DNA of 32,000 nucleotides from Rickettsia typhi (GTDB taxonomy: Bacteria; Pseudomonadota; Alphaproteobacteria; Rickettsiales; UBA1997): assembly GCA_945890035.1 (NCBI GenBank), contig CAMDCJ010000002.1, positions 3,855 through 35,854 of the forward strand. Reading direction: 5' to 3'. Of this stretch, positions 3,586 to 28,228 are shown piece by piece. The stretch's first letter is position 1; each line of letters begins with the position of its first letter. A program made the translations under genes and the position numbers. Under the pieces are notes generated by a model that was not told the origin of the DNA, searched no databases, and saw only the letters and a program-made list of their open reading frames with translations.

Positions 3586-5616
3586 TTAAAATTTTAAAGA
3601 AAATAAACTAAAAAAACTGGTTTTTATTAGAGAATAAAGGGTGTCACCTTTCGAGATAATTGGAATAGCGAAATCGATAAAGATTAAACCGATAATTACC
3701 AAGCCGAAAACCATCCAAGTGGCGTAATGATAAACGAAACCACTTTGGATTTTTGAAACGCCACGAGAGGCGAGGCGACATATTGAAACGGCGCCATTTG
3801 GAATGCCATCAACGATTTTCATATCAATAATTCTCCACAAGAAATTACTAAGTTTTTTAGTTGGATTTATTAGGGTATTTTCGTAAAACTCATCGAAATA
3901 CCATTTGTTGTAAGAGAGGTTGTAAAGCCTTGGGAAGGTTTTAGCGAGAAGCTTTGGCAATTGTGGTTTTTTAATATAAAACACAAAAGCTAAAGTGATG
4001 GCAACAACTCCAACAAGCATCGGAGCAATTTTTACTAAAAATGGCGCATGATGAATTTCGTCATAAAGGAAGAATTTTGACAGAGAAATTGTGATGGCTG
4101 AAGTGAAGAAGCCGTTGGTTGAAACCATGCCCAAAACTTCGGCGCCGAGATAGCCAACAACGATCGAGCCAATCGATAAAAGTAATAATGGAATAAGCAT
4201 AGTTTTTGGTGATTCGTGAGCGTGATCGAAGGTGTGTTGATCGGCGCGAGTCTTGCCGTGGAAGGTTAAAAATAAAAGGCGCCAAGAATAAAATGCCGTT
4301 AAAAATGCTGAGGTGATGCCCATGAAAAAAGCAAATTTGCCGACGGGAGTATGTGCCATGTAAGCCGATTCTAAAATTACATCTTTAGAGTAAAACCCAG
4401 CGAAAGGTGGAAAGCCTGCGAGAGCAAGAGAGCCAATCCACATTGCGACATAAGTTATCGGAATTTTTTTCCACAAACCGCCCATTTTTTGAATATTTTG
4501 TTCGTGATGCATGGCGTGAATAACGCTTCCAGCGCCAAGAAAGAGTAGGGCTTTAAAAAAGGCGTGAGTTGCCAAATGAAAAATCGCGCCCGAATAAGCC
4601 GACATTCCGCAGGCAAAAAACATATAGCCAAGTTGCGAACAAGTTGAGTAAGCGATAATTTTTTTAATATCATTTTGCGTTAAGGCGATGGTCGCCGCAA
4701 AAAGCGCGGTCGTGGCGCCAACGATGGCAACCAAATCAAGCGCGATTGGCGATAATTCAAAAAGTGGCGAGCAACGAGCGACTAAAAATACTCCGGCCGT
4801 AACCATGGTCGCGGCGTGAATTAAGGCAGAAACTGGCGTTGGACCTTCCATTGCATCTGCCAACCAAACATGCAAGCCAATTTGCGCCGATTTGCCCATG
4901 GCGCCAATGAACAATAAAATGCAAATTGTGTCGACGGTTAAAAATTCAGTTCCAAAAAGCGTAAAGCGGTCGGAAGCGTGATTGCAAATTTGATAAAAAA
5001 CTTTGGAATATTCAACAGAATCAAAGTTTAAATAAATTAAGGCGATTGCTAAAATTAAACCTAAATCGCCGACGCGATTGGCGATAAAAGCTTTCATCGA
5101 AGCGCGATTCGCCGAATCTTTTTTGAACCAAAAACCAATGAGTAAATATGAGGCAACGCCAACGCCTTCCCAGCCGAAAAATAATTGCACAAAATTATCG
5201 GCGGAAACCAGCGCAAGCATGAAAAAAGTAAAAAGCGATAAATAAGACATGAAACGAGCGATGGAACGATCGTCATGCATATAACCAATGGAGTAAAGAT
5301 GGACTAAAAATGAAATATAAGTGACGACGATGAACATTACCGCACTTAGAGCATCAACATGAATTGACCAGTTGGCGATAAAGCTTCCCGATTTTATGAA
5401 GCTAAATAAAACATCACTTTGAATTTGTTTAGTTTGATAAAATTGAACGAAAACCATTGTGGCGCAAAGGGCGGAGCCGAACATTAAAGCGGTGGTGAAA
5501 TATTGAGCGAATTTATCTGAGAAGCCATGATTATTTTTGCTTGGAATAATTCGTGATAAAATTCCTGAAAATAAAAAGCCGATTAGAGGCAGGAAAATCG
5601 TGAGTTTAGCTAGCAT
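3586..5616 (-). CDS. nuoL: NADH-quinone oxidoreductase subunit L (complex I antiporter-like subunit, ND5 homologue)
   Basis: The track ORF starts at TTG 5628. The first ATG (5614-5616) gives MLAKLTIFLPLIGFLF, a typical NuoL N-terminus. The protein is polytopic, with WEGVGVASYLLIGFW and HAATMVTAGVFL blocks. The C-terminal KWYFDEFY...IVDGIPNG region is characteristic of the NuoL lateral-helix segment. Confidence 0.85.
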   Translation of the reverse strand: MLAKLTIFLPLIGFLFSGILSRIIPSKNNHGFSDKFAQYFTTALMFGSALCATMVFVQFYQTKQIQSDVLFSFIKSGSFIANWSIHVDALSAVMFIVVTYISFLVHLYSIGYMHDDRSIARFMSYLSLFTFFMLALVSADNFVQLFFGWEGVGVASYLLIGFWFKKDSANRASMKAFIANRVGDLGLILAIALIYLNFDSVEYSKVFYQICNHASDRFTLFGTEFLTVDTICILLFIGAMGKSAQIGLHVWLADAMEGPTPVSALIHAATMVTAGVFLVARCSPLFELSPIALDLVAIVGATTALFAATIALTQNDIKKIIAYSTCSQLGYMFFACGMSAYSGAIFHLATHAFFKALLFLGAGSVIHAMHHEQNIQKMGGLWKKIPITYVAMWIGSLALAGFPPFAGFYSKDVILESAYMAHTPVGKFAFFMGITSAFLTAFYSWRLLFLTFHGKTRADQHTFDHAHESPKTMLIPLLLLSIGSIVVGYLGAEVLGMVSTNGFFTSAITISLSKFFLYDEIHHAPFLVKIAPMLVGVVAITLAFVFYIKKPQLPKLLAKTFPRLYNLSYNKWYFDEFYENTLINPTKKLSNFLWRIIDMKIVDGIPNGAVSICRLASRGVSKIQSGFVYHYATWMVFGLVIIGLIFIDFAIPIISKGDTLYSLIKTSFFSLFSLKF

Positions 5617-5839
5617 GGAAATTGACAAAAAGTTAAAAAAATTTTTGGTAAAAAAGAATTTATTTTTGCTATTTTATAACCGAATTTATTTTTGGCAAAT
5701 CTTTAAATGCATTTAATTTGTGGATAAGAAATTAAAAGTAACCTGGTACCTTTTTTGGTTTTTTTGTGGATAAACGTTTCATCTTTTTCTTCGAAAAAGA
5801 TTCACGACTGGGATTGCGTCGCCTTTGGCTCCTGATCCC

Positions 5840-5917
5840 GTTCTTCGCTAAAATAGCCGTTTAGGCTATTTTTGAATAGCGAAGAACTTACTAAAAATAG
5901 CCGTTTAGGCTATTTTT
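5840..5917. repeat. Two copies of a 24-bp hairpin unit; the first is nested inside an 11-bp inverted repeat
   Basis: aaaatagccgtttaggctattttt occurs at 5850-5873 and 5894-5917 (stem aaatagcc/ggctattt, loop gttta). gttcttcgcta (5840-5850) and tagcgaagaac (5877-5887) are perfect reverse complements around the first copy. Confidence 0.9.
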
Positions 5918-5936
5918 TTAACGCAAATAACCTATC

Positions 5937-6037
5937 GCAAATTTAGGGAGAATTTGAATCGCTTCTGCTACGCATTAAATTTGCTAAAGCAAATTTAGGG
6001 AAAATTTGAATCGCTCCACGGCGAATAAATCGCCGTA
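5937..6037. repeat. Two copies of a 29-bp unit plus associated hairpins; founder copies of a dispersed repeat family
   Basis: gcaaatttagggagaatttgaatcgcttc (5937-5965) and gcaaatttagggaaaatttgaatcgctcc (5989-6017) match at 27/29. One hairpin is aaatttgc-taaa-gcaaattt (5977-5996). A second is acggcga-ataaa-tcgccgt (about 6019-6037). Confidence 0.85.
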
Positions 6038-6104
6038 TCCGCGATGAATTTTGAATTAAAAGTAACCTGGTACCTTTTTCTTTGGTGTAATCACTCTCCC
6101 ATAG

Positions 6105-6450
6105 CGGCTTACACCCCTATAAACTCGTAAAAGCTTCAGGCTGTAGCTCCCCCCTTGAGGGGGAGCAGGCTAAAATGTTTTAACGGTAGTTAAAACTTTT
6201 AGCCGTGGGGGGTCAAAAACTTAGAACATCAAAGGTTTTAATGTTGCTAGAAAAGTTAAAGCAAAAAAATTCAGAATTTTTTTGTTTTAATTTTTGAGTT
6301 AACCTCAAGCCCGTTCATGTTGTCGGTATCTGACCCCTCACGGCTCCCAAATCGCAACTATCGTTGCGATTTTATCGCCCGCTCCCCCTCAAGGGGGGAG
6401 CTACAGCCTGAAGCTTTTTAAGAGCTTGTAGAAATTTGTAGGGGTATAAG
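6105..6450. repeat. Nested palindromic, MITE-like element with GC-rich arms and an AT-rich centre; no ORF
   Basis: Perfect 35-bp inverted repeat: aagcttcaggctgtagctccccccttgagggggag (6131-6165) against its exact reverse complement at 6382-6416. The arms extend imperfectly outward (gcttacacccctat / ataggggtataagc-like) and inward. An inner inverted pair is gtggggggtca (6204-6214) / tgacccctcac (6331-6341). Internal hairpins lie at 6167-6203 and 6349-6372. Confidence 0.85.
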
Positions 6451-6464
6451 CTTTAGCCCCTCCC

Positions 6465-6533
6465 AAAATTTTCTTGCAGAAAATTTTACCCTCCCGCGAA
6501 GGGGAGGGTGATTAGACCGAGCTACAGCCTGAA
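6465..6533. repeat. Two perfect hairpins plus a third copy of the gagctacagcctgaa motif
   Basis: One hairpin is aaaattttc-ttgca-gaaaatttt (6465-6487). The other is accctccc-gcgaag-gggagggt (6488-6509). gagctacagcctgaa at 6519-6533 repeats 6399-6413 and occurs inverted at 6134-6148. The GC hairpin lies just downstream of the minus-strand cassette and might act as its terminator, but no clean U-run follows. Confidence 0.8.
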
Positions 6534-6606
6534 AAATTTATAGTTTAATAAATTAATAAAATATATCAGATATTCAAAAGGTTGGAAAATAATTTATCTT
6601 TAAATG

Positions 6607-7608
6607 TTAAGATTGTATTTCATAAATTAATCCAAAATCTTTATATTTTTCATCATTTACAATAGCGTCAAGATATTCAATGGGATAACTTTCAATTTCA
6701 TCTTCTAATAATGAATACATCTCAATTCCGATTTCGGTAAGTATTGCAAAACATTTCATATTAAACTCTATTGTTCCAGCACTTACGGGTTGTTTTGTGA
6801 TGTAGAATTTGATTTTATTTGTGCTAAATATTGTAAATTTAAAATCTTTTTCCAAGAATTTTTTAAGCTCAAGCAGTCCCTCAATATTCATGGCTTTTTT
6901 TAAAGATTCTTCATTGAGGGTTGCATTCTTCCATGATAAGATACCCACAACTTCAGCTGTTTCCAATTTATAATTATAACCTTTATTGGCATCTTGATTA
7001 ACAAAAATACGATTTGAAAATTTTAAATTGTCGCTATGTGCTTGGCAAAAATTCATTTCCTGAAAATCTTGGATAATATTTTTATAATTTAAAATTCCAC
7101 CATTTAAAACATATCTAAATATTTTTTTCAATATTTGTAATTTTTCATCCGTTATACTGGCAATAAAATCAATTGTTTCTTTTGAAATATTCAATTCTTT
7201 GCTATTTATTTTTTGAGCAGCTTTTTTTAGTAAAATTTTGACTTCAATTTGGCGGTTTTTGTGAATGTAGTCTATTATTTCTCTGTAAATATCAAATTCG
7301 TCATTTGTAAAATCTGAATCTTTTTTTATATCAAGATCTACATCTAAACAGGTTTTTAATGTATATTCTTGTTCTTCTGGCGTAAGGCAATTTAGAATTA
7401 TAAAACCAGCTTTAAGAACTGGTTTTATTGCTTCCCTAGTTATCTCGCCTTTATGATATTTTAATATCGTATCAAAAAGTTTATTCCTGTTTTCTTGTAT
7501 ATAAAGCGGGATATTGCTTGCAACAAAGTTTGCGATTTCTTTGGTAGTATCCTTAACTTCTTGAATTGCTTCGCCATTTTCTTTTTTTAATTTTTTAAAC
7601 CATTTCAT
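6607..7608 (-). CDS. Hypothetical 333-aa protein, third gene of the TA-like cassette; no recognisable domain
   Basis: ATG at 7606-7608 overlaps the stop of the preceding gene (ATGA, 7605-7608). No signal peptide or TM segment is visible. The N-terminal half looks helical and charged. The C-terminal half has mixed patterns such as FILTEIGIEMYSLLE-like. I recognise no catalytic motif. Confidence 0.6.
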   Translation of the reverse strand: MKWFKKLKKENGEAIQEVKDTTKEIANFVASNIPLYIQENRNKLFDTILKYHKGEITREAIKPVLKAGFIILNCLTPEEQEYTLKTCLDVDLDIKKDSDFTNDEFDIYREIIDYIHKNRQIEVKILLKKAAQKINSKELNISKETIDFIASITDEKLQILKKIFRYVLNGGILNYKNIIQDFQEMNFCQAHSDNLKFSNRIFVNQDANKGYNYKLETAEVVGILSWKNATLNEESLKKAMNIEGLLELKKFLEKDFKFTIFSTNKIKFYITKQPVSAGTIEFNMKCFAILTEIGIEMYSLLEDEIESYPIEYLDAIVNDEKYKDFGLIYEIQS

Positions 7609-7997
7609 AATTCATAACCCTCAAAATTATTTTCAAAATATTTTTTTACAAACTCATAATCCATGTCGCTATCATCCTTCTCTTTGAAATAAATTTCTAA
7701 AAATTCTACCACAAATTTTTCGGGATAAAAAGCGTAAATAATTCTAATGCCACTGCGATTTCCCTTTCCCTTCAATGCTTTACAAGAAAACTTTTTAAGT
7801 TTATAAATTTGAATAATTTTTTTATCAAAATTAGGAATTAGAAAAACCGCTTCATTATTGATTCCATGAAGATGAAAAGTTTCAATCGCAAATTTTTTAG
7901 CGATTGCTAAATCTTCTTCGAGAGTGCGATATTTGCGAATAAGTTTTTTAAATTGTTTTGCGAATTTTTCGTTTGTTTCAAACTTAATTTTTTTCAT
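7605..7997 (-). CDS. RelE/ParE/HigB-superfamily toxin-like protein (130 aa)
   Basis: Track ORF 7605-8150 is trimmed to the internal ATG at 7995-7997, because its first 51 codons lie inside the preceding gene. It has basic N-terminal helices (KFAKQFKKLIRKYRTLEEDL). The core KALKGKGNRSGIRIIYAFYPEKFVVEFLEIYFKEKDDSDM matches the K-G-x-G-x-R-(I/V)-I-Y ... (L/I)-x-I-x-x-K pattern I recall for RelE/HigB(Gp49)-type toxins. Confidence 0.6.
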   Translation of the reverse strand: MKKIKFETNEKFAKQFKKLIRKYRTLEEDLAIAKKFAIETFHLHGINNEAVFLIPNFDKKIIQIYKLKKFSCKALKGKGNRSGIRIIYAFYPEKFVVEFLEIYFKEKDDSDMDYEFVKKYFENNFEGYEL

Positions 7998-8748
7998 AAG
8001 TTCGAACTGAGGTTTCTTTGGTGCGGTAAAACACGGCTTCGTAAGAAATATCTTTGCCAATTTCGGTTGAAATCCACGGCACATCTTGATGCGAAAAATC
8101 AGAAAGTTCTTTGGCGGTTTTGTGTCCAAGTCGCGCAATTTCTTCGTCAATATGTTGGAGTTCGCGCCCTGAAAACACAGATAAATCAGGGCTGATAACT
8201 GGAATATATTTCTTTTGATCCTTATCGAAAAATTTAGTGGTTATTTCTTCGATTTTTCCTTCTTTAACCATTTCTTTTACCACCGCAGAAAACTCACGGG
8301 GAGTTGGACCAAAGTGATTTTTAATGTAAGTTGCACCGATAAGCTGCTCTTCATATTTTTCGTAATAATCGAAATCACAAAAATATAAAATTTTATAAAG
8401 CACGGTTTGGCCAACATTGGGCAAGGCTCCAATTTTTTGAGTAATGTAAAGAAGGGCGTTTTTAAATTTTTCGACATTGCGCGCAGGAACGCTAATTCGC
8501 GGTTTTAGTTTTGGATTTTTTTTTGAAAGATTTTTTCCCAAAATAACTTCAACTTCGGAAGTTTCGCCAAAAATTTCTGAAGTACTAATGCCGAGATTCA
8601 TCGCCAATTTATCAGCTTCGGATATTCGTAATTCTCTCTTGCCCGCAAGAATTTTAATTATGGTTGGGCGAGAAACGCCAATTATTCCAGCTAGTTTTGA
8701 TTGTGAGATTTGATGTTTATTGATGAGGTCTTTAAATTTATTACTCAT
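7984..8748 (-). CDS. XRE-family HTH fused to a DUF4065/SocA-like (Panacea) antitoxin domain
   Basis: ATG at 8746-8748. The N-terminal HTH_3 pattern is ISQSKLAGIIGVSRPTIIKILAGKRELRISEADKLAMNLGIS. The C-terminal part ALLYITQKIGALPNVGQTVLYKILYFCDFDYYEKYEEQLIGATYIKNHFGPTPREF matches the K-L-x-Y-x-x-D ... G-P-x-P pattern I recall for DUF4065. It overlaps the downstream toxin-like gene by 14 nt. Confidence 0.65.
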   Translation of the reverse strand: MSNKFKDLINKHQISQSKLAGIIGVSRPTIIKILAGKRELRISEADKLAMNLGISTSEIFGETSEVEVILGKNLSKKNPKLKPRISVPARNVEKFKNALLYITQKIGALPNVGQTVLYKILYFCDFDYYEKYEEQLIGATYIKNHFGPTPREFSAVVKEMVKEGKIEEITTKFFDKDQKKYIPVISPDLSVFSGRELQHIDEEIARLGHKTAKELSDFSHQDVPWISTEIGKDISYEAVFYRTKETSVRTYEKN

Positions 8749-8800
8749 GTTAAATTGTGTTTAAAAAATTTATTTTTGAAATTTGTTTAAACTTATTTTA

Positions 8801-8852
8801 AAATTGTAAATATTATTGTCAATAAATGTGTAAATATTATTTACAATTTACA
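8801..8852 (-). promoter_or_regulatory. Operator-like array upstream of the HTH gene: four TGTAAAT motifs (two direct, two inverted) including a 12-bp perfect inverted repeat
   Basis: tgtaaat occurs at 8805-8811 and 8829-8835, and atttaca at 8839-8845 and 8846-8852. aaattgtaaata (8801-8812) is the exact reverse complement of tatttacaattt (8838-8849). gtaaatattatt is repeated at 8806-8817 and 8830-8841. The array lies 53-104 bp upstream of the ATG at 8748. Confidence 0.5.
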
Positions 8853-8856
8853 TTAT

Positions 8857-11220
8857 TTAAAATCGTAATTTCGCTTGAAACTTGCTCGCTAAAGTTTCGA
8901 TTATTTTAGCGCTAAAATTTTCGATTTCTTCGGAAGTGAGAGTTTTTTCACTCGATTGAATTTTGACACGCAAAGCCACGGATTTCTTGCCTTCTTCGAT
9001 ATTATTGCCACTAAAAATATCAAAAATATTAACTTCTTTGATTGAATTTTTATCAATAGCTTGAATTGATTTTGTAAGCTCGCCGACCATTAAATCTTTA
9101 TCAACTAAAAAAGCAAAATCTCTTTCGACGATTGGGAAATCATTGCTTTGATAAGCTTTGCGTGAGTTTGATTTTGAAGAAGCGGGAAGGGAATCAACAA
9201 AAATTTCAAAAATATAAATACGCGTTTTTAAATCAAAAAATTTATTAATTGCCGGGTGAATTTCACCAAAATAGCCAATAATATTTTTACCAAGTTTAGC
9301 GCAAGCAAAGCGATGCGGATGATAATATTTTAAAGGCGAATCGCCAGTAATTTGAAGGCTTTCGGGCTTGATTCCGAAATGCTCAACGACATCAAAAAAA
9401 TCTTTTTTAACATCAAAAAAATCGACATCGCGCTCATCGTGATAATGATTTTGTTCTTTATTTTTGCCAGCACGAAGGCCTGAAATCATGGTTTTTTGCG
9501 CAGTTGGGCTTTCAAAAATATTGCCAATTTCAAATAGAGCTAAATTTTGAAAATTACGCAGATAATTTTTTTGATAAGAATTGATTAAGCCAATTGCCAG
9601 AGTAGGGCGCATGTGGTTTAATTCGAGCGAAATTGGATTTTGTAAAATTAAATTTGAGTTTTTTTGTGCAAAAATTTCAACAATTTTTTCATCAACAAAT
9701 GACCAATTTATGGTTTCAATTAAACCTTTTGAAGCCAATAAAATTCGGACTTTGTGAAGTGGATTAATAAAATTTTGAGAAATATTTTGTGGATTTTCTA
9801 AAATATTTTTTTGAATATTTTCATAACCATAAATTCTTAAAATTTCTTCAACTAAATCTTCGCTTGAAAAAATATCGTGACGCTTGGTTGGCACTTCAAC
9901 TTTAAAATTTTTATCCGCTTTAAAGCCAAGAGAATTAAGGATTTCAAGTGCTTTATCTTGAGAAATTTTTATGCCAATTAAGCTTTCAAATTTATTAAAA
10001 TCAAAATCAATAAATTGTTGTGTTAAATTGTGATTTTCAATGAAAATTTCGCTGGCCTCACCACCGCAAATTTCAATAATTAATTGTGTCGCAAGCTCAA
10101 TGCCATCAACGCAAGTTTGGTAATCGACTCCGCGTTCAAAACGATGACGCGAATCGGATAAAATATTTAAAGATCGACCATTTTGGGCAACGATTTCTTT
10201 GCTAAAAAATGCTGATTCAAGCAAAATCGCTGAGGTTTCGATTTCACATGAAGAATGTTTCGAGCCCATGACTCCAGCGACGCTAAGAACATTATTTTCA
10301 TCGGCAATTGTTAATATTTTTTCTTTAAGTTCATGTTCAGAATTTTTTAATGAAAGAAATTTTTGATTTTTTTGAGCGTTGCCAATCACGATTTTTTTGT
10401 CAATTTTGTTTAAATCGTAAGCATGCATTGGGCGATTTAAAACATGCATGACATAATTTGTGACATCAACTATTGCCGAAATGGAATTCATCCCAGCGCT
10501 TTGAATTTTTTTAACAAGCCATTCGGGTGATTGACAATTTTTAAGATTTTTTAAAACACGAAAAGAAATGAATGGGCAATCTTGTGGTGATTGATTTAAA
10601 ACCGTTAAATCAAATTTAAATTTGCTCGGAATTTCTGCAATTTTTGGAATTTTTAAAGTGCCAATTCCAGTTGCCGATAAATCGCAAGCAATGCCGAAGA
10701 CGCCTAGGCAATCGCCACGATTTGGAGTTATATTGATTTCAATAATGGCGTCATCGATGCCAAAAACTTCAGAAATCTTAGTGCCAATTGCAAATTTTTC
10801 GTCAATTTCAATAATGCCAGCATCTTCGTTGCCAATTGATAATTCGCGGGCTGAGCACAGCATGCCATTACTTTCGACGCCAGCGATTTTGGCTTTTTTG
10901 ATAATCATGCCATTGCTTGGAATGGTTGAATTGATTGGCGCGTAAGCAACTTTGATGCCGGCGCGTGCGTTCGATGCTCCGCAAATAATTTGCAATGGAG
11001 TTGCGCTGTCAATGGTTTCAACCAAGCAAATTTTGAGTTTGTTAGAATTTTCGTGAGGCTTGGCTTCAATTATTTTTGCAACCGTAAATTCCGCAAGATT
11101 TTTCGCTTTATCTTCGCAATTTTCAACTTCTAAACCAATCTTTGTAAGAGTTTTACAAATTTCCGCAAGAGATGCTGTGGTTTCCAAGAATTCTTTTAGA
11201 GTTGAAAGGGCGAATTGCAT
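8857..11220 (-). CDS. pheT: Phenylalanine--tRNA ligase beta subunit
   Basis: 787 aa, ATG at 11218-11220. It starts with the tRNA-binding (OB) region KIIEAKPHENSNKLKICLVE...IICGASNARAG. B3/4, B5 and FDX-ACB-like regions follow, and the C-terminus is SVALRVKIQSSEKTLTSEEI. Confidence 0.9.
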   Translation of the reverse strand: MQFALSTLKEFLETTASLAEICKTLTKIGLEVENCEDKAKNLAEFTVAKIIEAKPHENSNKLKICLVETIDSATPLQIICGASNARAGIKVAYAPINSTIPSNGMIIKKAKIAGVESNGMLCSARELSIGNEDAGIIEIDEKFAIGTKISEVFGIDDAIIEINITPNRGDCLGVFGIACDLSATGIGTLKIPKIAEIPSKFKFDLTVLNQSPQDCPFISFRVLKNLKNCQSPEWLVKKIQSAGMNSISAIVDVTNYVMHVLNRPMHAYDLNKIDKKIVIGNAQKNQKFLSLKNSEHELKEKILTIADENNVLSVAGVMGSKHSSCEIETSAILLESAFFSKEIVAQNGRSLNILSDSRHRFERGVDYQTCVDGIELATQLIIEICGGEASEIFIENHNLTQQFIDFDFNKFESLIGIKISQDKALEILNSLGFKADKNFKVEVPTKRHDIFSSEDLVEEILRIYGYENIQKNILENPQNISQNFINPLHKVRILLASKGLIETINWSFVDEKIVEIFAQKNSNLILQNPISLELNHMRPTLAIGLINSYQKNYLRNFQNLALFEIGNIFESPTAQKTMISGLRAGKNKEQNHYHDERDVDFFDVKKDFFDVVEHFGIKPESLQITGDSPLKYYHPHRFACAKLGKNIIGYFGEIHPAINKFFDLKTRIYIFEIFVDSLPASSKSNSRKAYQSNDFPIVERDFAFLVDKDLMVGELTKSIQAIDKNSIKEVNIFDIFSGNNIEEGKKSVALRVKIQSSEKTLTSEEIENFSAKIIETLASKFQAKLRF

Positions 11221-20771: not shown

Positions 20772-21667
20772 GAAATAGTTTTTTTAGGTTTCAAGAAAAT
20801 TTGATAAACGCGATGAAAATTATAATTAAATTCAGCGCCAAAAATAAAAACTAAACTGATTAAATAAAAGAACATTAACGAAACTATGATTCCAGCGATT
20901 GAGCCGTAAACAAAATTCATTTGATTAAAATTTTCTAAATAAAGCGAGAAAAAATTTACTAAAGTGATCCATAAAATTACCGCCAAAATTGACCCTGGAA
21001 GAGTTTGCGAAAATTTTTGTTTAACATTGGGAAGGGCGTAATAAAGAAGTGAAGTTGAGATGGCTAGAATCACAAAAATTGCTACTTGACGCAGGTAAAA
21101 AAAGTCATAATCAATGGCGAGTTTTATTGAAAATTGTTTTTCAAAATATTTTAAAATAACGGGCACAATAACGAATATTAAAATACCACTAAGTATCACG
21201 AAAATTATTATAAAAAATTCAAAAATACTTACTAATCTGCGCAAGATATATGGTGGCGGGAGGGCTACGCGGTAGGCGCGATTTAGAATTGTGCGACAAC
21301 CTTCAACCGAAGATGATGCCGTCCAAATTACGCCAATAATCGCAATTGTTAAATAACCATCGCTTGGACCAGAAATTATTTCGTTGATTCTAGGAGTAAG
21401 TCCGCGCGACATTTCATTTGGTAAACTGGAAATTAATTCATGTAAAAAATCGGTACCAATTTGTGATTCTCCAAAAATTCCAATCACCGCAATTAAGAAA
21501 ATTAGTGATGGAAAAAATGATAAAATACTCAAGAAAGCCAAATAGCCAGAATGTTCAATGCCGTCATGTCGAATAGTGTCTAACAATGCTTTGTGAAATA
21601 TTTTAAAGGGTATTAGAAAATATTTATGCAAGTAATAATTTATTTTTGAGCGAGATTTTTTTGGCAT
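20768..21667 (-). CDS. YihY/BrkB (virulence factor BrkB, formerly 'ribonuclease BN-like') family inner-membrane protein
   Basis: 299 aa and polytopic. The N-terminal block DGIEHSGYLAFLSILSFFPSL and the later blocks YGSIAGIIVSLMFFYL and IFGAEFN match the YihY family layout. Confidence 0.7.
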   Translation of the reverse strand: MPKKSRSKINYYLHKYFLIPFKIFHKALLDTIRHDGIEHSGYLAFLSILSFFPSLIFLIAVIGIFGESQIGTDFLHELISSLPNEMSRGLTPRINEIISGPSDGYLTIAIIGVIWTASSSVEGCRTILNRAYRVALPPPYILRRLVSIFEFFIIIFVILSGILIFVIVPVILKYFEKQFSIKLAIDYDFFYLRQVAIFVILAISTSLLYYALPNVKQKFSQTLPGSILAVILWITLVNFFSLYLENFNQMNFVYGSIAGIIVSLMFFYLISLVFIFGAEFNYNFHRVYQIFLKPKKTIS

Positions 21668-21682
21668 TCTATAAGCTATAAT

Positions 21683-22105
21683 TTAAATTTCTTTAGTGAA
21701 TGTAAATTTTTCTAAAATGAATTTTTCTGATAAAAATAATTTATGTTCAAGTTTATTTTTTGTAAGAGAAGTAAAAATTATTTTTTTACATAAAAATTGG
21801 CAACAAATATTATTTAACCAATCGCTTAAAAGTTGCATAATTGCAATTTCATTATTGCCTTCAGACACATAAAAATCAATGATCTCGCAAAGTTTATTTG
21901 AAAAAAAATCATGATTAATTTTGCAAACAATTAATCCGATAATTTCTTGATTTTTTTCGTCAAAAACCAGCGCAATATGATGATCTTTTTGAATTTTTTC
22001 AAAGACATCATCGATAAAATTTGTTGAATTAAAATCAAATCGTTGTTGTGCGTTTTTACAATATTTTGCGATATCTATCTTAGATAATAATGTTTTTAAT
22101 TGCAT
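21683..22105 (-). CDS. Hypothetical 140-aa protein, possibly a degenerate GNAT-fold protein
   Basis: The size and strand/helix spacing (IGLIVCKIN...LCEIIDFYV...IAIMQLLSDWL...) resemble GNAT, but the Q/R-x-x-G-x-G/A acetyl-CoA loop is not recognisable. Confidence 0.3.
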   Translation of the reverse strand: MQLKTLLSKIDIAKYCKNAQQRFDFNSTNFIDDVFEKIQKDHHIALVFDEKNQEIIGLIVCKINHDFFSNKLCEIIDFYVSEGNNEIAIMQLLSDWLNNICCQFLCKKIIFTSLTKNKLEHKLFLSEKFILEKFTFTKEI

Positions 22106-22163
22106 TTTGATGATTGATAATTAGGTTTTAAAATTAGTAATATTTATAAAGTCAATTAATTCT

Positions 22164-24845
22164 ATGGTCAAGAGGCTAAATAACATTAAATATTTAGAGA
22201 AAAATTCAAAAAAATATCAATATTTAACGCAAATTCAAGAATCAATTAAATTGGACTTTATATATTCATTGGTCGATTTAAATGAATTTGATAAAGAAGT
22301 CAAATTAAAATTTTTAGAATTACAAAGGATTAAAAAAAAGATTGATTCTAAGCAAAAAGATTTGGAAGTTGATAAATTTTATAATGAAATCAAAGAAGAT
22401 AAAAAGTTATTTTTACAAATTCTCGAGCTAGAATCGAAATTACAAGAAGTGTTAAGAAGAGCTAGAAAATCAGCTCTCAATGATATAATTTCTTGCTATA
22501 AAATTGAAGCAAAAGATGAGCAATTTTCATTTAACGAATTACTCAAAAAAGCTTTTGAAAATAAAATAAAACCAGAAATTTTACAAAATTTTCTAACGAA
22601 AAATTTTAAAGCCTTTTTTAGTTTAACCCCACATCCAACAAACCCAACAAGCTTAGAATATTCAGTTCTTGGATATGAATTTGATGAGATAATTTCTAAC
22701 AAAAAAACTCTTAACTTTAAAAAACTTCAAGATAATTTACAAAAAATTTTGAAGTGTTCGATAACTAGTCAAAAAAAATCATGTTTAGATGAGATGATTG
22801 AAAGCGAATTGGCGTTAAAAAATATTAAAATTGCCAATCAACAATTGCATAAAAAACTAAAATTAGAAATCAAAAATTCACCATATAAAAATCAAATATT
22901 TTTACCCAAGAAAATTTGTGAAATTGCATTATGGAGCCATGGTGGAGATGGCGATGGCAACCCAAATACAACTGCAGAAATTCTAGAAATCGGCATCGAA
23001 AGAATTAAAAAACTTAAGTTAGAATCGAAAATTGATTTGAGGCATGATGCGAAAGATATTGAAAATGCGGGGGCGGAAATTTTACAAGATTTTGGAGTAA
23101 ATTTTTTCGCAAAAGATGAGGTGAATAAAATTAAAATCCTGCATGAATTTTTAGAAAATGAAATTTTGATTGATAAAATTTATAAGTTTTTATTACTAAA
23201 AACTAACAATAATGAAATTATTAAAAGGCTCTTGGTTGTAAATAAAAATCCATTCTTTATCGATAAGTTTATAATTTCAAATCATAAGAATGTTAGTCAA
23301 GTTTTGATGGTTTTATTTTTGCTAAAAATTACCAAAAATTTTCAAATAAAAAATCATATAATTGATATCGTAACTTTATCTGAATCAGTTGAAGATTTAA
23401 AAAATATTTTTGCAATTCAGCAACAATTAATTGCCGATAAAATTTATCAAAAATATTTAAAAAGAGCTAAAAAAATAATCGCCATGGTTGCCAAAAGCGA
23501 CACTGCTAGAGTAGGCGGAGTAGCAGTTGATTATTACCAAGATAGATGTGCTGGAGAAATTTTAATGCTTAAAAAAATTGCCCTCGAAAAATATAATTTA
23601 GATTTAGAAGTTTATGTTTTTAATGGTGGCGGTTATTCTCTTCAAAGAGGCGGTGGTCGCTTCGATGAAATTGCCAATCAACATGCTAACTCAATTTTAC
23701 AAATTGCCAAGGAGATGAAGATAAAAAATTTGCGTCTTGAGCCTCCAATTACAACGATTCAAGGACAGCAACAACAAATTTTATTCGGCTCGTTAAGTAT
23801 TGCGCAAAATACCATTGAAAATTTCGCGTTGCATAATTTGTGTGCTTCGCTGAAGGCTTCTTCTTTATTTAAAAAAACAAAAACCAATAATTCAAAATAT
23901 TATAAAATTCGCCAAGAATTTAGTGATGAAGCGATTAATTCATATCAAAAAAAATATTTTTCAAATCAATATTTGAATGAATTATTTTTTAACTCAAACC
24001 GCCTCGGAGTTATGCTTGGCAACCTTAGTTCGCGTCCATTAAAACGCGGTACAAAACAACAAAATATCAAAGCGCCAGTTAAATATTGTGATTTAATTGA
24101 AAATATTTCGACATTTAATATTTTTGAAACTAGAGCGATAACTTTGGATCGAACCATCGCTCACTCCGGCACTTTTGCCCTAATGTTTCTGGGCTTGCAA
24201 GAGGCTTTCAATAAAATTATTAAAAGACATAATTCAAAAATTTTATTGGAACTTTATTCGCATAATAATTTGTTTCGCGACTTTATTAGAAATCAAATAA
24301 TTGCCTTAAAAATGGTTGATATTAACTATGCTTGGCAAATGCTTATAGGCATAAAGCGCCCGGCAATTGAAGAGATTATAAAATTATCAAAAATCTTTCA
24401 TGAAGACAAAAAAATGCAAAAATTATCTCTAAAAAATCGTCAAAAAATTACTATGGCATTTTTAGATTTTTATATTTTTGAAGTCGGAAAAAACATTGCA
24501 AAATCAATCTTTAATCAAGATCTTGAGCTTGATTATCGACTTTATGATCTGAATAAAATTTTAGAAATTTACAGTTCAAATTTAGCAAGCGAGATGCGAT
24601 ATTGTAAAAATGAAAGCATTTTTACTAGGTTTAGCGAGAGCCATTTTACAAGCTTTTTAAACCATAATCCAACAAAAATTTTAGATGATTTTGATTTAAA
24701 AAATATTCATAATATTTACATCGCCAACAATATTGTTTTCAATGCGCCTCTAACAATGGCAACAATTTTTACTTCTTTTAAAAAAGACTCCCACGAAGTG
24801 CATAATTTCCTCGAAAAAATTTCTGATAAAAGCTTGTATTTTTAA
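22164..24845 (+). CDS. Highly divergent phosphoenolpyruvate carboxylase homologue (893 aa)
   Basis: It is collinear with Ppc blocks along its whole length. These are SLTPHPTNPT (cf. TAHPTE), WSHGGDGDGNPNTTAEI (cf. GGDRDGNPNVTA) and FIISNHKNVSQVLMVLFLLK (cf. YVISMAKTPSDVL). Further blocks are MVAKSDTARVGG (cf. GYSDSAKDAG), VFNGGGYSLQRGGG (cf. FHGRGGSIGRGG) and GNLSSRPLKRG (cf. GSRPAKR). Confidence 0.7.
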   Translation: MVKRLNNIKYLEKNSKKYQYLTQIQESIKLDFIYSLVDLNEFDKEVKLKFLELQRIKKKIDSKQKDLEVDKFYNEIKEDKKLFLQILELESKLQEVLRRARKSALNDIISCYKIEAKDEQFSFNELLKKAFENKIKPEILQNFLTKNFKAFFSLTPHPTNPTSLEYSVLGYEFDEIISNKKTLNFKKLQDNLQKILKCSITSQKKSCLDEMIESELALKNIKIANQQLHKKLKLEIKNSPYKNQIFLPKKICEIALWSHGGDGDGNPNTTAEILEIGIERIKKLKLESKIDLRHDAKDIENAGAEILQDFGVNFFAKDEVNKIKILHEFLENEILIDKIYKFLLLKTNNNEIIKRLLVVNKNPFFIDKFIISNHKNVSQVLMVLFLLKITKNFQIKNHIIDIVTLSESVEDLKNIFAIQQQLIADKIYQKYLKRAKKIIAMVAKSDTARVGGVAVDYYQDRCAGEILMLKKIALEKYNLDLEVYVFNGGGYSLQRGGGRFDEIANQHANSILQIAKEMKIKNLRLEPPITTIQGQQQQILFGSLSIAQNTIENFALHNLCASLKASSLFKKTKTNNSKYYKIRQEFSDEAINSYQKKYFSNQYLNELFFNSNRLGVMLGNLSSRPLKRGTKQQNIKAPVKYCDLIENISTFNIFETRAITLDRTIAHSGTFALMFLGLQEAFNKIIKRHNSKILLELYSHNNLFRDFIRNQIIALKMVDINYAWQMLIGIKRPAIEEIIKLSKIFHEDKKMQKLSLKNRQKITMAFLDFYIFEVGKNIAKSIFNQDLELDYRLYDLNKILEIYSSNLASEMRYCKNESIFTRFSESHFTSFLNHNPTKILDDFDLKNIHNIYIANNIVFNAPLTMATIFTSFKKDSHEVHNFLEKISDKSLYF

Positions 24846-27124: not shown

Positions 27125-28228
27125 ATGTTAAATTTTCTTTTACTATTATCGGTTTTTTTTATAACTAAAACCCCCATTCTTTTTGCTCAAAATGATTCTA
27201 ATTATCCATATCAAGAAAAAAATAATTATTACAATGATTATCTAGGAATTACTGATAGTTATCAATTAAATTATAATTATTCATCGCCTTCAAAAAGAAG
27301 CTATGATGAGGTCGAATTTAATAATCAACGCGATAATTATGGCAACAGTTTTGATTATGCTAATCAACCAGAGTATGTAGAAAAATATAAAAATGATAAG
27401 AGTAAATTGAATAATTCTAATAATAATTATGATAACAGTTTTGATTACTCGGCGCAACCAAAACCTGTAAAAAAATATAAAAATTTTAAAGATGGAAAAG
27501 GTTATGGTTATAGAGTATATGATAATTCAAATCGTCAATCATATTTTTGCAATCTTGCGCCATTAGCCAAAAAAAATTTTACCCATGATAATAATTTTAA
27601 TGGAATATATTTTGGAGTAGGTTTAGCTAAAATAGATTCATCATTAGATCTTCAAGAAAATGAAAATAATATCTTTGAACCTAGCAACATTAACCCTCCT
27701 TATAAATATAACTTCTCTGGGTCGAAAGTCCTACCCTCAATTATAATCGGACAGGGCAGGTTATTTTCAAGTGGCTTATTTTTGGGGCAGGAATATGCAA
27801 TTAATATTGGCGAATTTAAAATAACCAGTAATAAAATTGATAATAATAAATATAAAAGTATCTCTTATTTATTTTCAAATAACTCATATTATTCTGGAAA
27901 GTTAGGTTATAATATTTTTAAAAATTTTTTACCATATTTAAAACTTTCGTTTAGTATGTCGACTTCGAATTTTATTCTTAAAGATAATAACAATCATAAT
28001 TCTATAACCAGTGGTGGTGGAATATTTTTTGGCGGAGGATTCGGAATTGATATATCAATTCAAAATCATCTTAGGGCAATTATTGATTATACGCAATTTT
28101 ATGATGAGGGTGAAAGAGATTCTAGTTATCCAGCAGACAACCTAAATACGGATTTTTTTATTCAAAAAAAGACGTTATTTGAAACAAGTAATTCCTTCAC
28201 TCGTTTCAGCTTAGTTTATAAATTTTAA
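27125..28228 (+). CDS. Outer-membrane beta-barrel protein, paralogue of the preceding gene, with an Asn/Tyr-rich repeat-containing N-terminal region
   Basis: It has a signal peptide MLNFLLLLSVFFITKTPILFA. The blocks NFNGIYFGVGLA and FSGSKVLPSIIIGQG parallel NWNGVYFSLGME and FSGSSSLPNLTVGGG in the upstream gene. The terminal strand is TRFSLVYKF. A 60-bp internal duplication lies at 27335-27394 and 27425-27484. Confidence 0.7.
   Translation: MLNFLLLLSVFFITKTPILFAQNDSNYPYQEKNNYYNDYLGITDSYQLNYNYSSPSKRSYDEVEFNNQRDNYGNSFDYANQPEYVEKYKNDKSKLNNSNNNYDNSFDYSAQPKPVKKYKNFKDGKGYGYRVYDNSNRQSYFCNLAPLAKKNFTHDNNFNGIYFGVGLAKIDSSLDLQENENNIFEPSNINPPYKYNFSGSKVLPSIIIGQGRLFSSGLFLGQEYAINIGEFKITSNKIDNNKYKSISYLFSNNSYYSGKLGYNIFKNFLPYLKLSFSMSTSNFILKDNNNHNSITSGGGIFFGGGFGIDISIQNHLRAIIDYTQFYDEGERDSSYPADNLNTDFFIQKKTLFETSNSFTRFSLVYKF

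What the first reader, a model, noticed from the sequence alone, without database searches (positions are those of the whole stretch)
6607..8852. Translationally coupled three-gene cassette: XRE-HTH::Panacea(DUF4065)-like antitoxin gene, RelE/ParE-like toxin gene and an unplaceable 333-aa gene
Three minus-strand ORFs are chained with overlapping ends. They are 8748->7984 (254 aa), 7997->7605 (130 aa, 14-nt overlap) and 7608->6607 (333 aa, ATGA overlap at 7605-7608). Gene 1 fuses an XRE HTH to a region matching my recollection of the SocA/DUF4065 'Panacea' antitoxin domain (VLYKILYFCDFDYYEKYEEQLIGATYIKNHFGPTPREF). Gene 2 has the size, the basic N-terminal helices and the KGKGNRSGIRIIYAF...FLEIYFKEKDD core of RelE/ParE/HigB-type toxins. 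A two-gene Panacea TA pair would be unremarkable. What it does not explain is the tightly coupled, much larger third gene with no motif I can place. The locus may therefore be a tripartite toxin-antitoxin or abortive-infection-type module. The cassette sits between housekeeping genes (pheT, nuoL), carries its own operator-like array and abuts the only large repeat field in the window. It therefore looks like an accessory insertion in an otherwise streamlined genome.
Basis: partly seen in the sequence, partly recalled or inferred. Interest (0 to 1): 0.72.

Follow-up and report, generated by a model that had tools for sequence, protein, structure and literature searches.

The report
Toxin-antitoxin pair with swappable third gene
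The first two genes form an ordinary self-repressing toxin-antitoxin pair, and the third is an optional add-on from a rare, uncharacterised family, sitting in a slot that related bacteria fill with known anti-phage defence genes or leave empty.

Summary
The three chained minus-strand ORFs are real, at the stated coordinates. Gene 1 is an HTH_3 + SocA_Panacea (PanA) antitoxin/repressor. Gene 2 has no Pfam hit, but profile and fold evidence place it with RelE/HigB-2 toxins. Gene 3 matches nothing in Pfam, NCBIfam, PHROGs, PADLOC or PDB. Its family is very rare: 46 representatives among 1.8 billion proteins.

The locus is not a fixed tripartite system. Across about 11 genomic contexts the g1-g2 pair and its 17-bp palindromic operator are conserved. 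The position directly after the toxin gene varies. It holds gene 3, Gabija (GajA/GajB), a type I restriction subunit, PD-Lambda-3_B, PDC-S31/DUF2971, or nothing.

A 96%-identical relative carries pheT-g1-g2-nuoL without gene 3. The breakpoint falls five codons before the toxin stop. One locus keeps a 14-codon gene-3 stump in front of a replacement defence gene.

Gene 3 is under purifying selection (dN/dS about 0.25) but is mosaic. It also occurs after Fic genes or alone in defence islands.

Best reading: a PanA-RelE operon head with an exchangeable cargo slot, and gene 3 as a candidate new defence-type gene. Its biochemistry is unknown.

The parts
8829..8845 (-). Operator O1: exact palindrome TGTAAA-N5-TTTACA
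   Evidence: It is the only exact match in the 32-kb window. It occurs exactly once in each of 15 g1-bearing loci, about 80-100 nt upstream of g1. It is absent from loci that lack g1.
8805..8821 (-). Operator O2: degenerate copy (TGACAATAATATTTACA) overlapping the -35 hexamer
   Evidence: It forms a 24-nt tandem repeat and an inverted-repeat pair with O1. The same O1-6nt-O2(TTGAC/TA...) layout is conserved in L002, L003, L009, L011, L014, L016, L017, L019 and L021.
8795..8822 (-). Sigma-70-type promoter TTGACA-16-TAAAAT (11 of 12 positions)
   Evidence: Best promoter-like site in 5400-9100. Its position is conserved across loci. The total number of promoter-like sites in the region is not above chance, so the support comes from conservation.
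7984..8748 (-). g1: HTH_3 + SocA_Panacea (PanA) antitoxin and autorepressor, 254 aa
   Evidence: Pfam HTH_3 2.5e-9 and SocA_Panacea 9.7e-18. dN/dS is 0.08-0.10, the same as pheT. It is 69-98% identical across 11 contexts.
7605..7997 (-). g2: RelE/HigB-2-like toxin, 130 aa, overlapping g1 by 14 nt
   Evidence: The family profile hits V. cholerae HigB-2 at 4.6e-5. The AF2 model (pLDDT 83) matches RelE 1wmi at 7e-4, plus HigB2, E. coli RelE and YoeB. dN/dS is 0.04-0.08. No Pfam hit.
7605..7622 (-). Junction of the constant head and the variable cargo: last five g2 codons (EGYEL*), GAGG RBS of g3, ATGA stop/start overlap
   Evidence: Identity to the g3-less allele L016 ends exactly after ...GAAAATAATTTT. 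Near-identical g2 proteins carry at least 7 different C-terminal tails after ...KKYFE(N/S)N.
6607..7608 (-). g3: 333-aa cargo gene of an unannotated, rare family
   Evidence: No Pfam, NCBIfam, PHROG, PADLOC or PDB match. There are 36 homologues and 46 representatives. AF2 gives pLDDT 76 and pTM 0.70. dN/dS is 0.24-0.29. The sequence is mosaic.
6488..6509 (-). Terminator-like GC hairpin followed by a T-run, about 100 nt after the g3 stop
   Evidence: The same element follows g2 in the g3-less allele (window 6519-6452 aligns with L016 7250-7318).
6520..7622 (-). Segment present here, in L017 and in L018 but replaced by 123 unrelated nt in L016 (the g3 cassette)
   Evidence: blastn and alignment of the window against L016, L017 and L018.
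5629..6606 (.). Repeat field between g3 and nuoL. It holds a nested palindrome (6129-6418), paired 39-41-nt repeats (5850-6015) and two exact copies of AAAGTAACCTGGTACC (5735, 6059)
   Evidence: The same 16-mer flanks the replacement cargo gene in L009/L010 and occurs once in L016.

Best explanation
The locus is an autoregulated type II toxin-antitoxin pair that forms the constant 5' head of an operon. The slot directly after the toxin gene is exchangeable.

g1 (HTH-PanA) most likely dimerises on the two 17-bp palindromes that overlap the -35 hexamer and represses the promoter. It also neutralises g2, a RelE/HigB-2-type ribosome-dependent mRNase.

g3 is not a fixed third partner. It is one of several alternative cargo genes that ride on this promoter and are translated by coupling to the toxin gene.

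g3 is most probably a new accessory gene of the phage-defence or abortive-infection type. The same slot elsewhere holds Gabija, a type I restriction subunit, PD-Lambda-3_B and PDC-S31, and solo g3 homologues sit beside Hachiman HamA, NTase-HEPN and Fic genes. Loss or inactivation of the labile antitoxin-repressor would both derepress g3 and free the toxin.

Shown here: the domain and fold assignments, the conserved operator and promoter, the conserved pair with variable cargo, the exact breakpoint, the presence/absence polymorphism, the g3 stump, and purifying selection with mosaicism.

Inferred: toxicity and neutralisation, repression by g1, co-transcription, any defence activity of g3, and its biochemistry.
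For: - g1 domains.
- g2 RelE/HigB-2 similarity and fold.
- Operator: exact, unique, and conserved upstream of g1 in 15 loci. It overlaps the best promoter.
- Same three-gene order in unrelated flanks: L002, L003, L007.
- Other cargo directly after g2:
  - PD-Lambda-3_B, 1.5e-85.
  - PDC-S31/DUF2971, 2.7e-24, with a 12-nt gap.
  - Metallophos + GajA 2.9e-182 + GajB 1.7e-117, with a 4-nt overlap.
  - Split HsdR, 2.9e-173, with a 4-nt overlap, inside a type I R-M locus.
- No cargo in L014, L016 and L021.
- The L016 allele of the same pheT-nuoL locus lacks g3, with a breakpoint 5 codons before the g2 stop.
- L009 has a g3 5' stump (MKWLKKFRNKNREL), then repeats, then the PD-Lambda-3_B gene.
- At least 7 C-terminal tail alleles occur on otherwise near-identical g2 proteins.
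- Solo g3 homologues lie next to HamA (2.7e-101), NTase-HEPN and Fic.
- dN/dS: g1 0.08-0.10, g2 0.04-0.08, g3 0.24-0.29, pheT 0.09-0.11.
- g3 is mosaic: against P0005 the N-terminus is 33% identical and the rest 97-99%.
- Literature: Kurata et al. 2022 (PMC8832971) report HTH-PanA antitoxins and 'accessory third genes' present in only a subset of PanAT loci. Ernits et al. 2023 (PMC10440598) propose Panacea as a sensor and the HTH as the autoregulator. PD-lambda-3 acts by abortive infection (PMC13190303).
Against: - No experiment has been done. g2 falls below every Pfam RelE/ParE model, and its catalytic competence is unknown.
- g3 matches no PADLOC model or any other model, and no catalytic motif is conserved across its superfamily. 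The defence role therefore rests on association alone.
It is not an unbiased survey.
- The host looks like a small-genome (1.5 Mb), low-GC alphaproteobacterium, with ankyrin genes nearby in L016. Some related MAGs are labelled Rickettsiales. If it is intracellular, phage pressure may be low.
- TA genes and defence genes co-localise in islands in any case, so part of the association could be passive.
Confidence: 0.6

Rival explanations
1. It is a true tripartite toxin-antitoxin system. g3 is a functional partner of PanA/RelE in this lineage, acting as a second toxin neutralised by the promiscuous PanA, as a trigger sensor, or as a modulator or chaperone of the pair.
For: - The ATGA overlap, and the g3 RBS embedded in the g2 tail.
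- The same g1-g2-g3 order in at least 4 different genomic flanks: window, L002, L003, L007.
- PanA antitoxins are known to pair with many unrelated toxins (PMC8832971).
- In L028-L030 g3 again follows a toxin-type gene (Fic) and a small protein.
Against: - A near-identical g1-g2 pair persists without g3 at the same locus (L016).
- Most g2 homologues lack g3: 329 against 36.
- The slot is filled by unrelated genes elsewhere.
- g3 homologues exist with no PanA or RelE nearby.
- g3 evolves about 3 times faster than g1 and g2 and recombines independently of them.
Confidence: 0.15
2. The adjacency is passive. The 3' end of g2 is merely a recombination hot spot next to mobile repeats. g3 is an unrelated hitch-hiking gene of unknown function, possibly not defence, with no functional tie to the TA pair.
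For: - Multiple junction alleles and lineage-specific repeats flank the cargo.
- g3 appears in several other contexts.
- g3 has no defence-model hit.
- Kurata et al. concluded that accessory third genes probably play no general role in toxicity or neutralisation.
Against: - Cargo genes overlap the toxin gene by 4 nt, or lie within 5-12 nt of it, in the g3, Gabija, HsdR and PDC-S31 loci. They are therefore expressed from the PanA-controlled promoter. The exception is PD-Lambda-3_B in L009/L010, which sits about 200 nt downstream behind the g3 stump and repeats.
- No convincing separate g3 promoter was found.
- The identifiable cargo types, other than g3 itself, match PADLOC defence or candidate-defence models.
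Confidence: 0.17
3. g1-g2 is no longer a killing TA pair. It is a two-protein transcriptional control unit in which the RelE-like protein acts as an inactive co-repressor. It gates expression of potentially harmful defence cargo, in the way that C-proteins or BrxR-type regulators do.
For: - Strong conservation of the operators and of the head module in front of diverse defence genes.
- g2 falls below all Pfam RelE/ParE thresholds.
- Regulators that co-localise with diverse defence systems are known: WYL/BrxR (PMC9122601) and RptR (PMC12255303), both listed.
Against: - The conserved GKG-x-RSG-x-R-x-x-Y...IY-x-K core aligns with the HigB-2 toxin.
- g2 is under very strong purifying selection.
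- The pair also stands alone without cargo (L014, L016, L021), as a classical TA would.
Confidence: 0.08

Closest known systems
PanAT toxin-antitoxin systems: Panacea/DUF4065 antitoxins with an N-terminal HTH (Kurata et al. 2022, PMC8832971; Ernits et al. 2023, PMC10440598)
   Same: - g1 has HTH_3 + SocA_Panacea above Pfam thresholds.
- The antitoxin gene comes first and overlaps a small toxin-like gene.
- The pairing is conserved across many genomes.
- An 'accessory third gene' is present in only some loci, as those authors reported for 25 clusters.
   Different: - The partner toxin family is not captured by any Pfam RelE/ParE model.
- The accessory slot is filled here by a series of alternative genes, including recognised defence systems, with an exact junction inside the toxin's last codons.
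- That pattern, and the g3 family itself, were not found described in the papers read here.
Vibrio cholerae HigB-2 and the RelE superfamily (PDB 5ja8, 8a0x, 1wmi, 4fxh)
   Same: The C-terminal core aligns: KGKGxRSGxRIIYxF...IYxK (profile E 4.6e-5). The predicted b-a-a-b-b-b-b-a fold has RelE, HigB2 and YoeB as its top structural matches.
   Different: - Only about 20% identity.
- The sequence match covers about 46 residues.
- No Pfam membership.
- The antitoxin is PanA rather than HigA-2, and the gene order is antitoxin first.
- Activity is untested.
Three-component TA systems (paaR-paaA-parE; TA-chaperone TAC; mazEF-mazG)
   Same: Three co-directional, tightly packed genes that include a TA pair.
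   Different: In those systems the third gene is a conserved, dedicated regulator, chaperone or modulator. Here the third gene is dispensable, replaceable and found elsewhere without the pair.
Regulators and TA modules placed in front of diverse defence systems (BrxR/WYL regulators, PMC9122601; RptR, PMC12255303; C-proteins of R-M systems; TA or Abi genes embedded in type I R-M loci)
   Same: A conserved DNA-binding head module with its own operator sits in front of varied defence cargo. One instance lies between hsdS and hsdR.
   Different: The head here is a complete PanA-RelE TA pair rather than a lone repressor. The cargo is translationally coupled to the toxin gene.

Membership tests
PanA (Panacea-domain antitoxin) | SocA_Panacea/DUF4065 domain (PF13274) above the gathering score | tested here: met
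   65.6 bits against a cut-off of 25.7, E 9.7e-18, residues 117-225.
PanA (Panacea-domain antitoxin) | Encoded within 100 nt of a putative toxin gene, in an arrangement conserved in several genomes | tested here: met
   14-nt overlap with g2. The same pair occurs in about 11 different genomic contexts.
PanA (Panacea-domain antitoxin) | Neutralises the cognate toxin by complex formation | not testable with these tools
   Needs co-expression and pull-down.
RelE/ParE (BECR-fold) toxin superfamily | Match to a Pfam RelE/ParE-clan model | tested here: not met
   No family at E<=1 for g2. Of 30 family members, only 1 touches PF06296 RelE, at 0.069.
RelE/ParE (BECR-fold) toxin superfamily | Significant sequence-profile similarity to a solved RelE-family toxin | tested here: met
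   The A2 profile hits HigB-2 (5ja8, 8a0x, 5mje) at 4.6e-5 to 6e-5 over the conserved C-terminal core. The single-sequence search gives 0.003.
RelE/ParE (BECR-fold) toxin superfamily | RelE fold: N-terminal helical hairpin packed on an antiparallel sheet | tested here: met
   The AF2 model has pLDDT 83 and pTM 0.80, with topology b-a-a-b-b-b-b-a. The Foldseek PDB top 35 are almost all RelE, HigB2, YoeB, HigB or YafQ chains. The best is 1wmi at E 7e-4, probability 1.00, TMt 0.67.
RelE/ParE (BECR-fold) toxin superfamily | Toxic activity (ribosome-dependent mRNA cleavage or gyrase poisoning) | not testable with these tools
   Only conservation of R85, Y88, Y103 and K105 in the aligned core can be stated.
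Tripartite TA system | The third gene is consistently conserved with the TA pair | tested here: not met
   g3 is absent from L016 at the same locus. In other loci it is absent or replaced by other genes. There are 329 g2 homologues against 36 g3 homologues.
Known or candidate anti-phage defence families (PADLOC-DB 2.0) for g3 | Match of g3 or its relatives to a defence-protein model | tested here: not met
   No hit for g3. Among 10 distant relatives there is nothing except one weak RT_UG22 match at 0.0052.
Defence-island gene (guilt by association) for g3 | Recurrent location among, or interchangeability with, recognised defence genes | tested here: inconclusive
   The slot is shared with Gabija, HsdR, PD-Lambda-3_B and PDC-S31. 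Solo homologues lie next to HamA, NTase-HEPN and Fic. The sample is small and not random, and no enrichment statistic was computed.

The most novel reading that the evidence does not exclude
The HTH-PanA/RelE-like pair is a phage-responsive switch, not just a neighbour. Panacea senses an infection cue. The operon is derepressed and the toxin is released. Whatever defence cargo sits in the translationally coupled slot (Gabija, HsdR, PD-Lambda-3_B, PDC-S31 or g3) is then induced.

On this reading g3 founds a new anti-phage (abortive-infection) family. That family has a soluble branch with a mosaic N-terminal specificity module and a membrane-anchored branch. Its fold has no detectable match among solved (PDB) structures and only a weak match to one unnamed viral-protein model.
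Probability: 0.25. Interest if true: 0.8.

Novelty: new variant of a known kind. Interest (0 to 1): 0.6.

Why it matters
The work turns an apparent 'odd tripartite TA' into a testable picture. One conserved, self-repressing TA head drives a hot-swappable gene slot, and natural alleles of that slot are already in hand: empty, g3, Gabija, a restriction subunit, PD-Lambda-3_B and PDC-S31.

If the coupling is functional, it gives a concrete system for two open questions. One is what chromosomal PanA-type TA pairs are for. The other is how defence genes are kept silent yet inducible.

It also nominates a compact, very rare, fold-orphan protein family (g3) as a candidate new defence gene. The head module and its operator could serve as a search handle for further unknown cargo. 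If the coupling is passive, the locus is still a clean example of a recombination hot spot at a toxin gene's 3' end in a small genome.

Tried and rejected
**Searches for g3 that found nothing**
- Pfam, NCBIfam, PHROGs and PADLOC, on g3 itself, on 23 family members and on 20 distant relatives.
- The family profile against PDB sequences. The best hit was ribosomal protein L29 at E 0.14, which is noise.
- Foldseek of the g3 model against PDB. The best hit had E 0.45 and TM about 0.1, with scattered DNA polymerase beta matches treated as noise.
- Foldseek against BFVD gave one unnamed viral protein, A0A291AUV8 (E 3.4e-3, TMt 0.46), which is not informative.
- An iterated profile (A4) search added no annotated relatives.
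- IMG/VR viral contigs, GenBank phages and PLSDB plasmids hold no g2 or g3 relatives. A phage or plasmid origin is therefore not supported.

**Other checks**
- Rfam and tRNA scans of the window were empty.
- A first operator pattern with N6 spacing was wrong. The correct spacing is N5.

**Ideas considered and rejected**
- A HEPN-like Rx4-6H motif in g3. The conserved H116 and R119 are in the wrong order and spacing.
- An 'addiction module that stabilises the cargo'. L016 lost g3 (or never gained it) while keeping the TA pair intact, so the pair cannot protect the cargo from precise loss.
- A remembered resemblance of the g3 core (ISKxTIxFLxSITDxDLxILK) to Abi_alpha/DUF2806-type motifs. No Pfam hit supports it, so it is not claimed.
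Full report
**1. Observation**

The three minus-strand ORFs exist as described. g1 is 8748->7984 (254 aa), g2 is 7997->7605 (130 aa) and g3 is 7608->6607 (333 aa). g1 and g2 overlap by 14 nt. g2 and g3 share ATGA at 7605-7608. A GAGG ribosome-binding site for g3 lies at 7622-7619, inside the last codons of g2.

The mechanical ORF list extends g2 to a TTG at 8150. All homologues start at the MKKI... methionine, so 7997 is the real start.

The flanking genes are pheT (8857-11220) and nuoL (3586-5628). This follows from the Pfam labels on a 94-96% identical locus.

The best promoter-like site in the region is TTGACA-16-TAAAAT at 8822..8795 on the minus strand. It overlaps a pair of palindromes. 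A GC hairpin with a T-run lies about 100 nt after g3, at 6509..6488. The 5629-6606 spacer is the only non-coding field of long, high-identity repeats in the window.

**2. The two upstream genes**

g1 carries HTH_3 (2.5e-9) and SocA_Panacea (9.7e-18; 65.6 bits against a 25.7 cut-off). It is an HTH-PanA antitoxin of the kind catalogued by Kurata et al. 2022. Those authors found HTH domains in 343 PanA proteins (PMC8832971).

The other evidence places it in the RelE superfamily:
- It matches V. cholerae HigB-2 in PDB at 0.003 as a single sequence and at 4.6e-5 as a 30-member profile, over the conserved KGKGxRSGxRIIYxF...IYxK core.
- Its AF2 model (pLDDT 83, pTM 0.80, b-a-a-b-b-b-b-a) retrieves almost exclusively RelE, HigB2, YoeB, HigB and YafQ chains. 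The best is 1wmi at 7e-4 with probability 1.00.
- JGI annotators also call many homologues RelE.

g2 is therefore a divergent member of the RelE/HigB-2 superfamily. Its activity is untested.

**3. The operator**

The exact palindrome TGTAAA-N5-TTTACA occurs once in the 32-kb window, at 8829-8845. It occurs once in each of 15 g1-bearing loci, always about 80-100 nt upstream of g1. It is absent from loci without g1. L014/L015 and L019/L020 carry one-mismatch versions.

A second, degenerate copy six bases downstream overlaps the -35 hexamer (TTGACA or TTGATA) in every context examined. This is the classical layout of an autorepressed TA promoter. Binding itself is inferred.

**4. Gene 3**

g3 has no match in Pfam, NCBIfam, PHROGs or PADLOC. 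Its profile finds nothing in PDB sequences.

Its AF2 model (pLDDT 76, pTM 0.70) shows a helical N-terminal half and an alpha/beta C-terminal half. It has low confidence at residues 1-30 and about 207-245. The model has no Foldseek match in PDB (best E 0.45, TM about 0.1). In BFVD it has only one unnamed viral match.

The family is tiny. There are 36 homologues among 5.8 billion clustered proteins and 46 representatives among 1.84 billion. An iterated profile adds nothing annotated. None are in viral contigs, phage records or plasmids.

g3 is nevertheless a real gene. Its dN/dS is 0.24-0.29, against 0.08-0.10 for g1, 0.04-0.08 for g2 and 0.09-0.11 for pheT.

It is mosaic. P0005 is 97-99% identical to the window protein over residues 93-333 but only 33% over residues 1-92. 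P0009 also swaps the 206-250 segment. The swapped segments coincide with the low-confidence parts of the model.

About 13 distant superfamily members replace the N-terminal module with one to three hydrophobic, probably transmembrane, segments. Only a helical core (ISKxTIxFLxSITDxDLxILKxQFxYV) and a C-terminal LTxxGxExYxLLKDEI motif are shared. No obvious catalytic constellation is conserved.

**5. The decisive comparative result**

The g1-g2 pair is conserved at 69-98% and 63-99% identity. What follows it is not conserved.

| Locus | Flank or setting | What follows g2 |
|---|---|---|
| Window, L017, L018 | pheT-nuoL | g3 |
| L002, L003, L007 | different flanks | g3 |
| L009, L010 | next to a KilA-N gene | full-length PD-Lambda-3_B homologue (1.5e-85; Hypoth_Ymh) |
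| L011-L013 | after yidC | PDC-S31/DUF2971 protein (2.7e-24), 12 nt after g2 |
| L019, L020 | not characterised | metallophosphatase overlapping g2 by 4 nt, then GajA (2.9e-182) and GajB (1.7e-117) |
| L024 | between hsdS and hsdR of a type I R-M locus | split HsdR (2.9e-173), 4-nt overlap |
| L014/L015, L016, L021-L023 | L016 is pheT-nuoL; the others have other flanks | nothing |

g2 homologues outnumber g3 homologues 329 to 36.

**6. Presence/absence at the same locus**

L016 is part of a 1.52-Mb contig. It is 96% identical to the window from pheT through g2 and again from nuoL onward, but it has no g3.

Identity ends exactly after ...GAAAATAATTTT, at window position about 7623, five codons before the g2 stop. 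It resumes at the shared terminator element (window 6519-6452 aligns with L016 7250-7318).

The g3 cassette therefore brings the last five g2 codons (EGYEL*), its own RBS and the ORF. Near-identical g2 proteins (cluster at >=90% identity, plus the L016 allele) end in at least seven different tails...FEGYEL...FEGYE(K/N)TKAVH...QNGV...LI...FEG...FKD and ...FYKNTPNA. This implies several cargo states at this junction within one population.

In L009 the g2 stop is followed by a 14-codon stump of g3 (MKWLKKFRNKNREL). After the stump come three copies of a 33-nt repeat (AAGTAACCTGGTACC...), the PD-Lambda-3_B gene and a fourth repeat copy. This is direct evidence that one cargo replaced another. The same 16-mer occurs twice in the window's repeat field and once in L016.

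**7. g3 away from the pair**

- L004: a 51%-identical homologue stands alone beside a Fic gene, an NTase-HEPN gene and Hachiman HamA (2.7e-101). The same MAG carries a cargo-less g1-g2 pair elsewhere, at L014.
- L005: a homologue sits near a Fic gene.
- L001: a homologue is followed by an NTase-HEPN gene after a 10-nt gap.
- L028-L030: a 57% homologue is the last gene of a Fic-123aa-g3 array. The 123-aa protein is unrelated to g2.

g3 therefore does not need PanA or RelE. It does keep the company of toxin-type and defence genes.

**8. Interpretation**

The best-supported model (confidence about 0.6) is an autorepressed HTH-PanA/RelE-like TA pair that serves as the constant head of an operon with an exchangeable, translationally coupled cargo slot. 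g3 is one such cargo. By association it is a candidate new defence or abortive-infection-type gene.

Kurata et al. noted that some PanAT loci have accessory third genes in a minority of genomes, and judged them not generally involved in toxicity or neutralisation. The present case fits that. It adds a defined junction, natural alleles, and identifiable cargo types other than g3 that all match PADLOC defence or candidate-defence models.

Ernits et al. proposed Panacea as a sensor domain. If so, antitoxin inactivation would both free the toxin and derepress the cargo. That step is inference.

A pure 'addiction' role is unlikely, because the pair survives loss of the cargo (L016).

Rivals:
- A true tripartite system (0.15).
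- Passive adjacency at a recombination hot spot (0.17).
- A detoxified two-protein regulator (0.08).

**9. Novelty**

g1 and g2 are new members of known kinds. g3 is an orphan family. The 'TA head with swappable defence cargo' arrangement is a new variant of the known co-localisation of TA modules and regulators with defence genes. I found no description of it in the papers searched, but that search covers open-access literature only.

**10. Limits**

The host is uncertain. It is a low-GC (about 32%) alphaproteobacterium with a genome of about 1.5 Mb, from freshwater metagenomes. Some related MAGs are labelled Rickettsiales.

Noticed in passing
L009:5389-6482 (also L010): Directly after the g2 stop there is a 14-codon remnant of g3 (MKWLKKFRNKNREL). 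It is followed by three tandem 33-nt repeats (AAGTAACCTGGTACCTTTTTTTCTTAATAATAA), the PD-Lambda-3_B-like gene and a fourth repeat copy. The repeats bracket the replacement cargo gene.
   Followed up: partly
window 5735-5750 and 6059-6074; L016:7209-7224: The same 16-mer, AAAGTAACCTGGTACC, occurs as two exact copies 324 nt apart in the window's repeat field (none expected by chance). It occurs once downstream of g2 in the g3-less allele. It may be a lineage-specific small mobile or recombination element.
   Followed up: partly
window 6129-6418: A nested palindrome: 63-nt arms that are 86% complementary, enclosing a second 72-nt-arm palindrome (6201-6345). It is MITE-like. It lies beyond the terminator-like hairpin. 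There is no Rfam match.
   Followed up: no
window 5850-6015: Two pairs of 39-41-nt direct repeats, each containing a short hairpin (AAAATAGCCGTTTAGGCTATTTT). Related 77-nt repeats occur twice in the L016 spacer (7337-7413 and 7537-7613).
   Followed up: no
L028:347-2896 (also L029, L030): A g3 homologue (57% identity) is the last gene of a Fic_N/Fic (376 aa) - 123-aa unknown - g3 array. A Fic gene also lies near the solo g3 homologues in L004 and L005, so the Fic association recurs.
   Followed up: partly
L024:111-7298: The PanA-RelE pair sits between hsdS and a split hsdR (523 aa + 392 aa, both matching one REase_I model) in a type I R-M locus. A HEPN_Cthe2314-like gene lies upstream. The split may be a frameshift or a pseudogene.
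   Followed up: no
L021:1-1876: Upstream of a cargo-less PanA-RelE pair lie ABC-3C system components (MC6, CTD10, DUF2326) and an NTase-HEPN gene. This is a defence island next to the module.
   Followed up: no
L011:793-1762: A Zeta_toxin-domain gene and a 135-aa partner are wedged between lon and yidC, about 2.5 kb upstream of the PanA-RelE-PDC-S31 operon.
   Followed up: no
window 27333-27489: An imperfect 67-nt direct repeat (78% identity, 90-nt period) inside ORF 27125-28228. It is probably a coding tandem repeat.
   Followed up: no
window 21500-24000: The lowest-GC stretch of the window (0.23-0.26). It covers the start of an 893-aa ORF (22164-24845). It was not examined.
   Followed up: no
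L016:1-203 and L014:9632-10381: Close relatives encode an ankyrin-repeat protein near the ATP synthase/pheT region and a giant 6197-aa protein. Together with the 1.52-Mb contig and about 32% GC, this hints at a host-associated lifestyle. That bears on how much phage pressure the locus sees.
   Followed up: no
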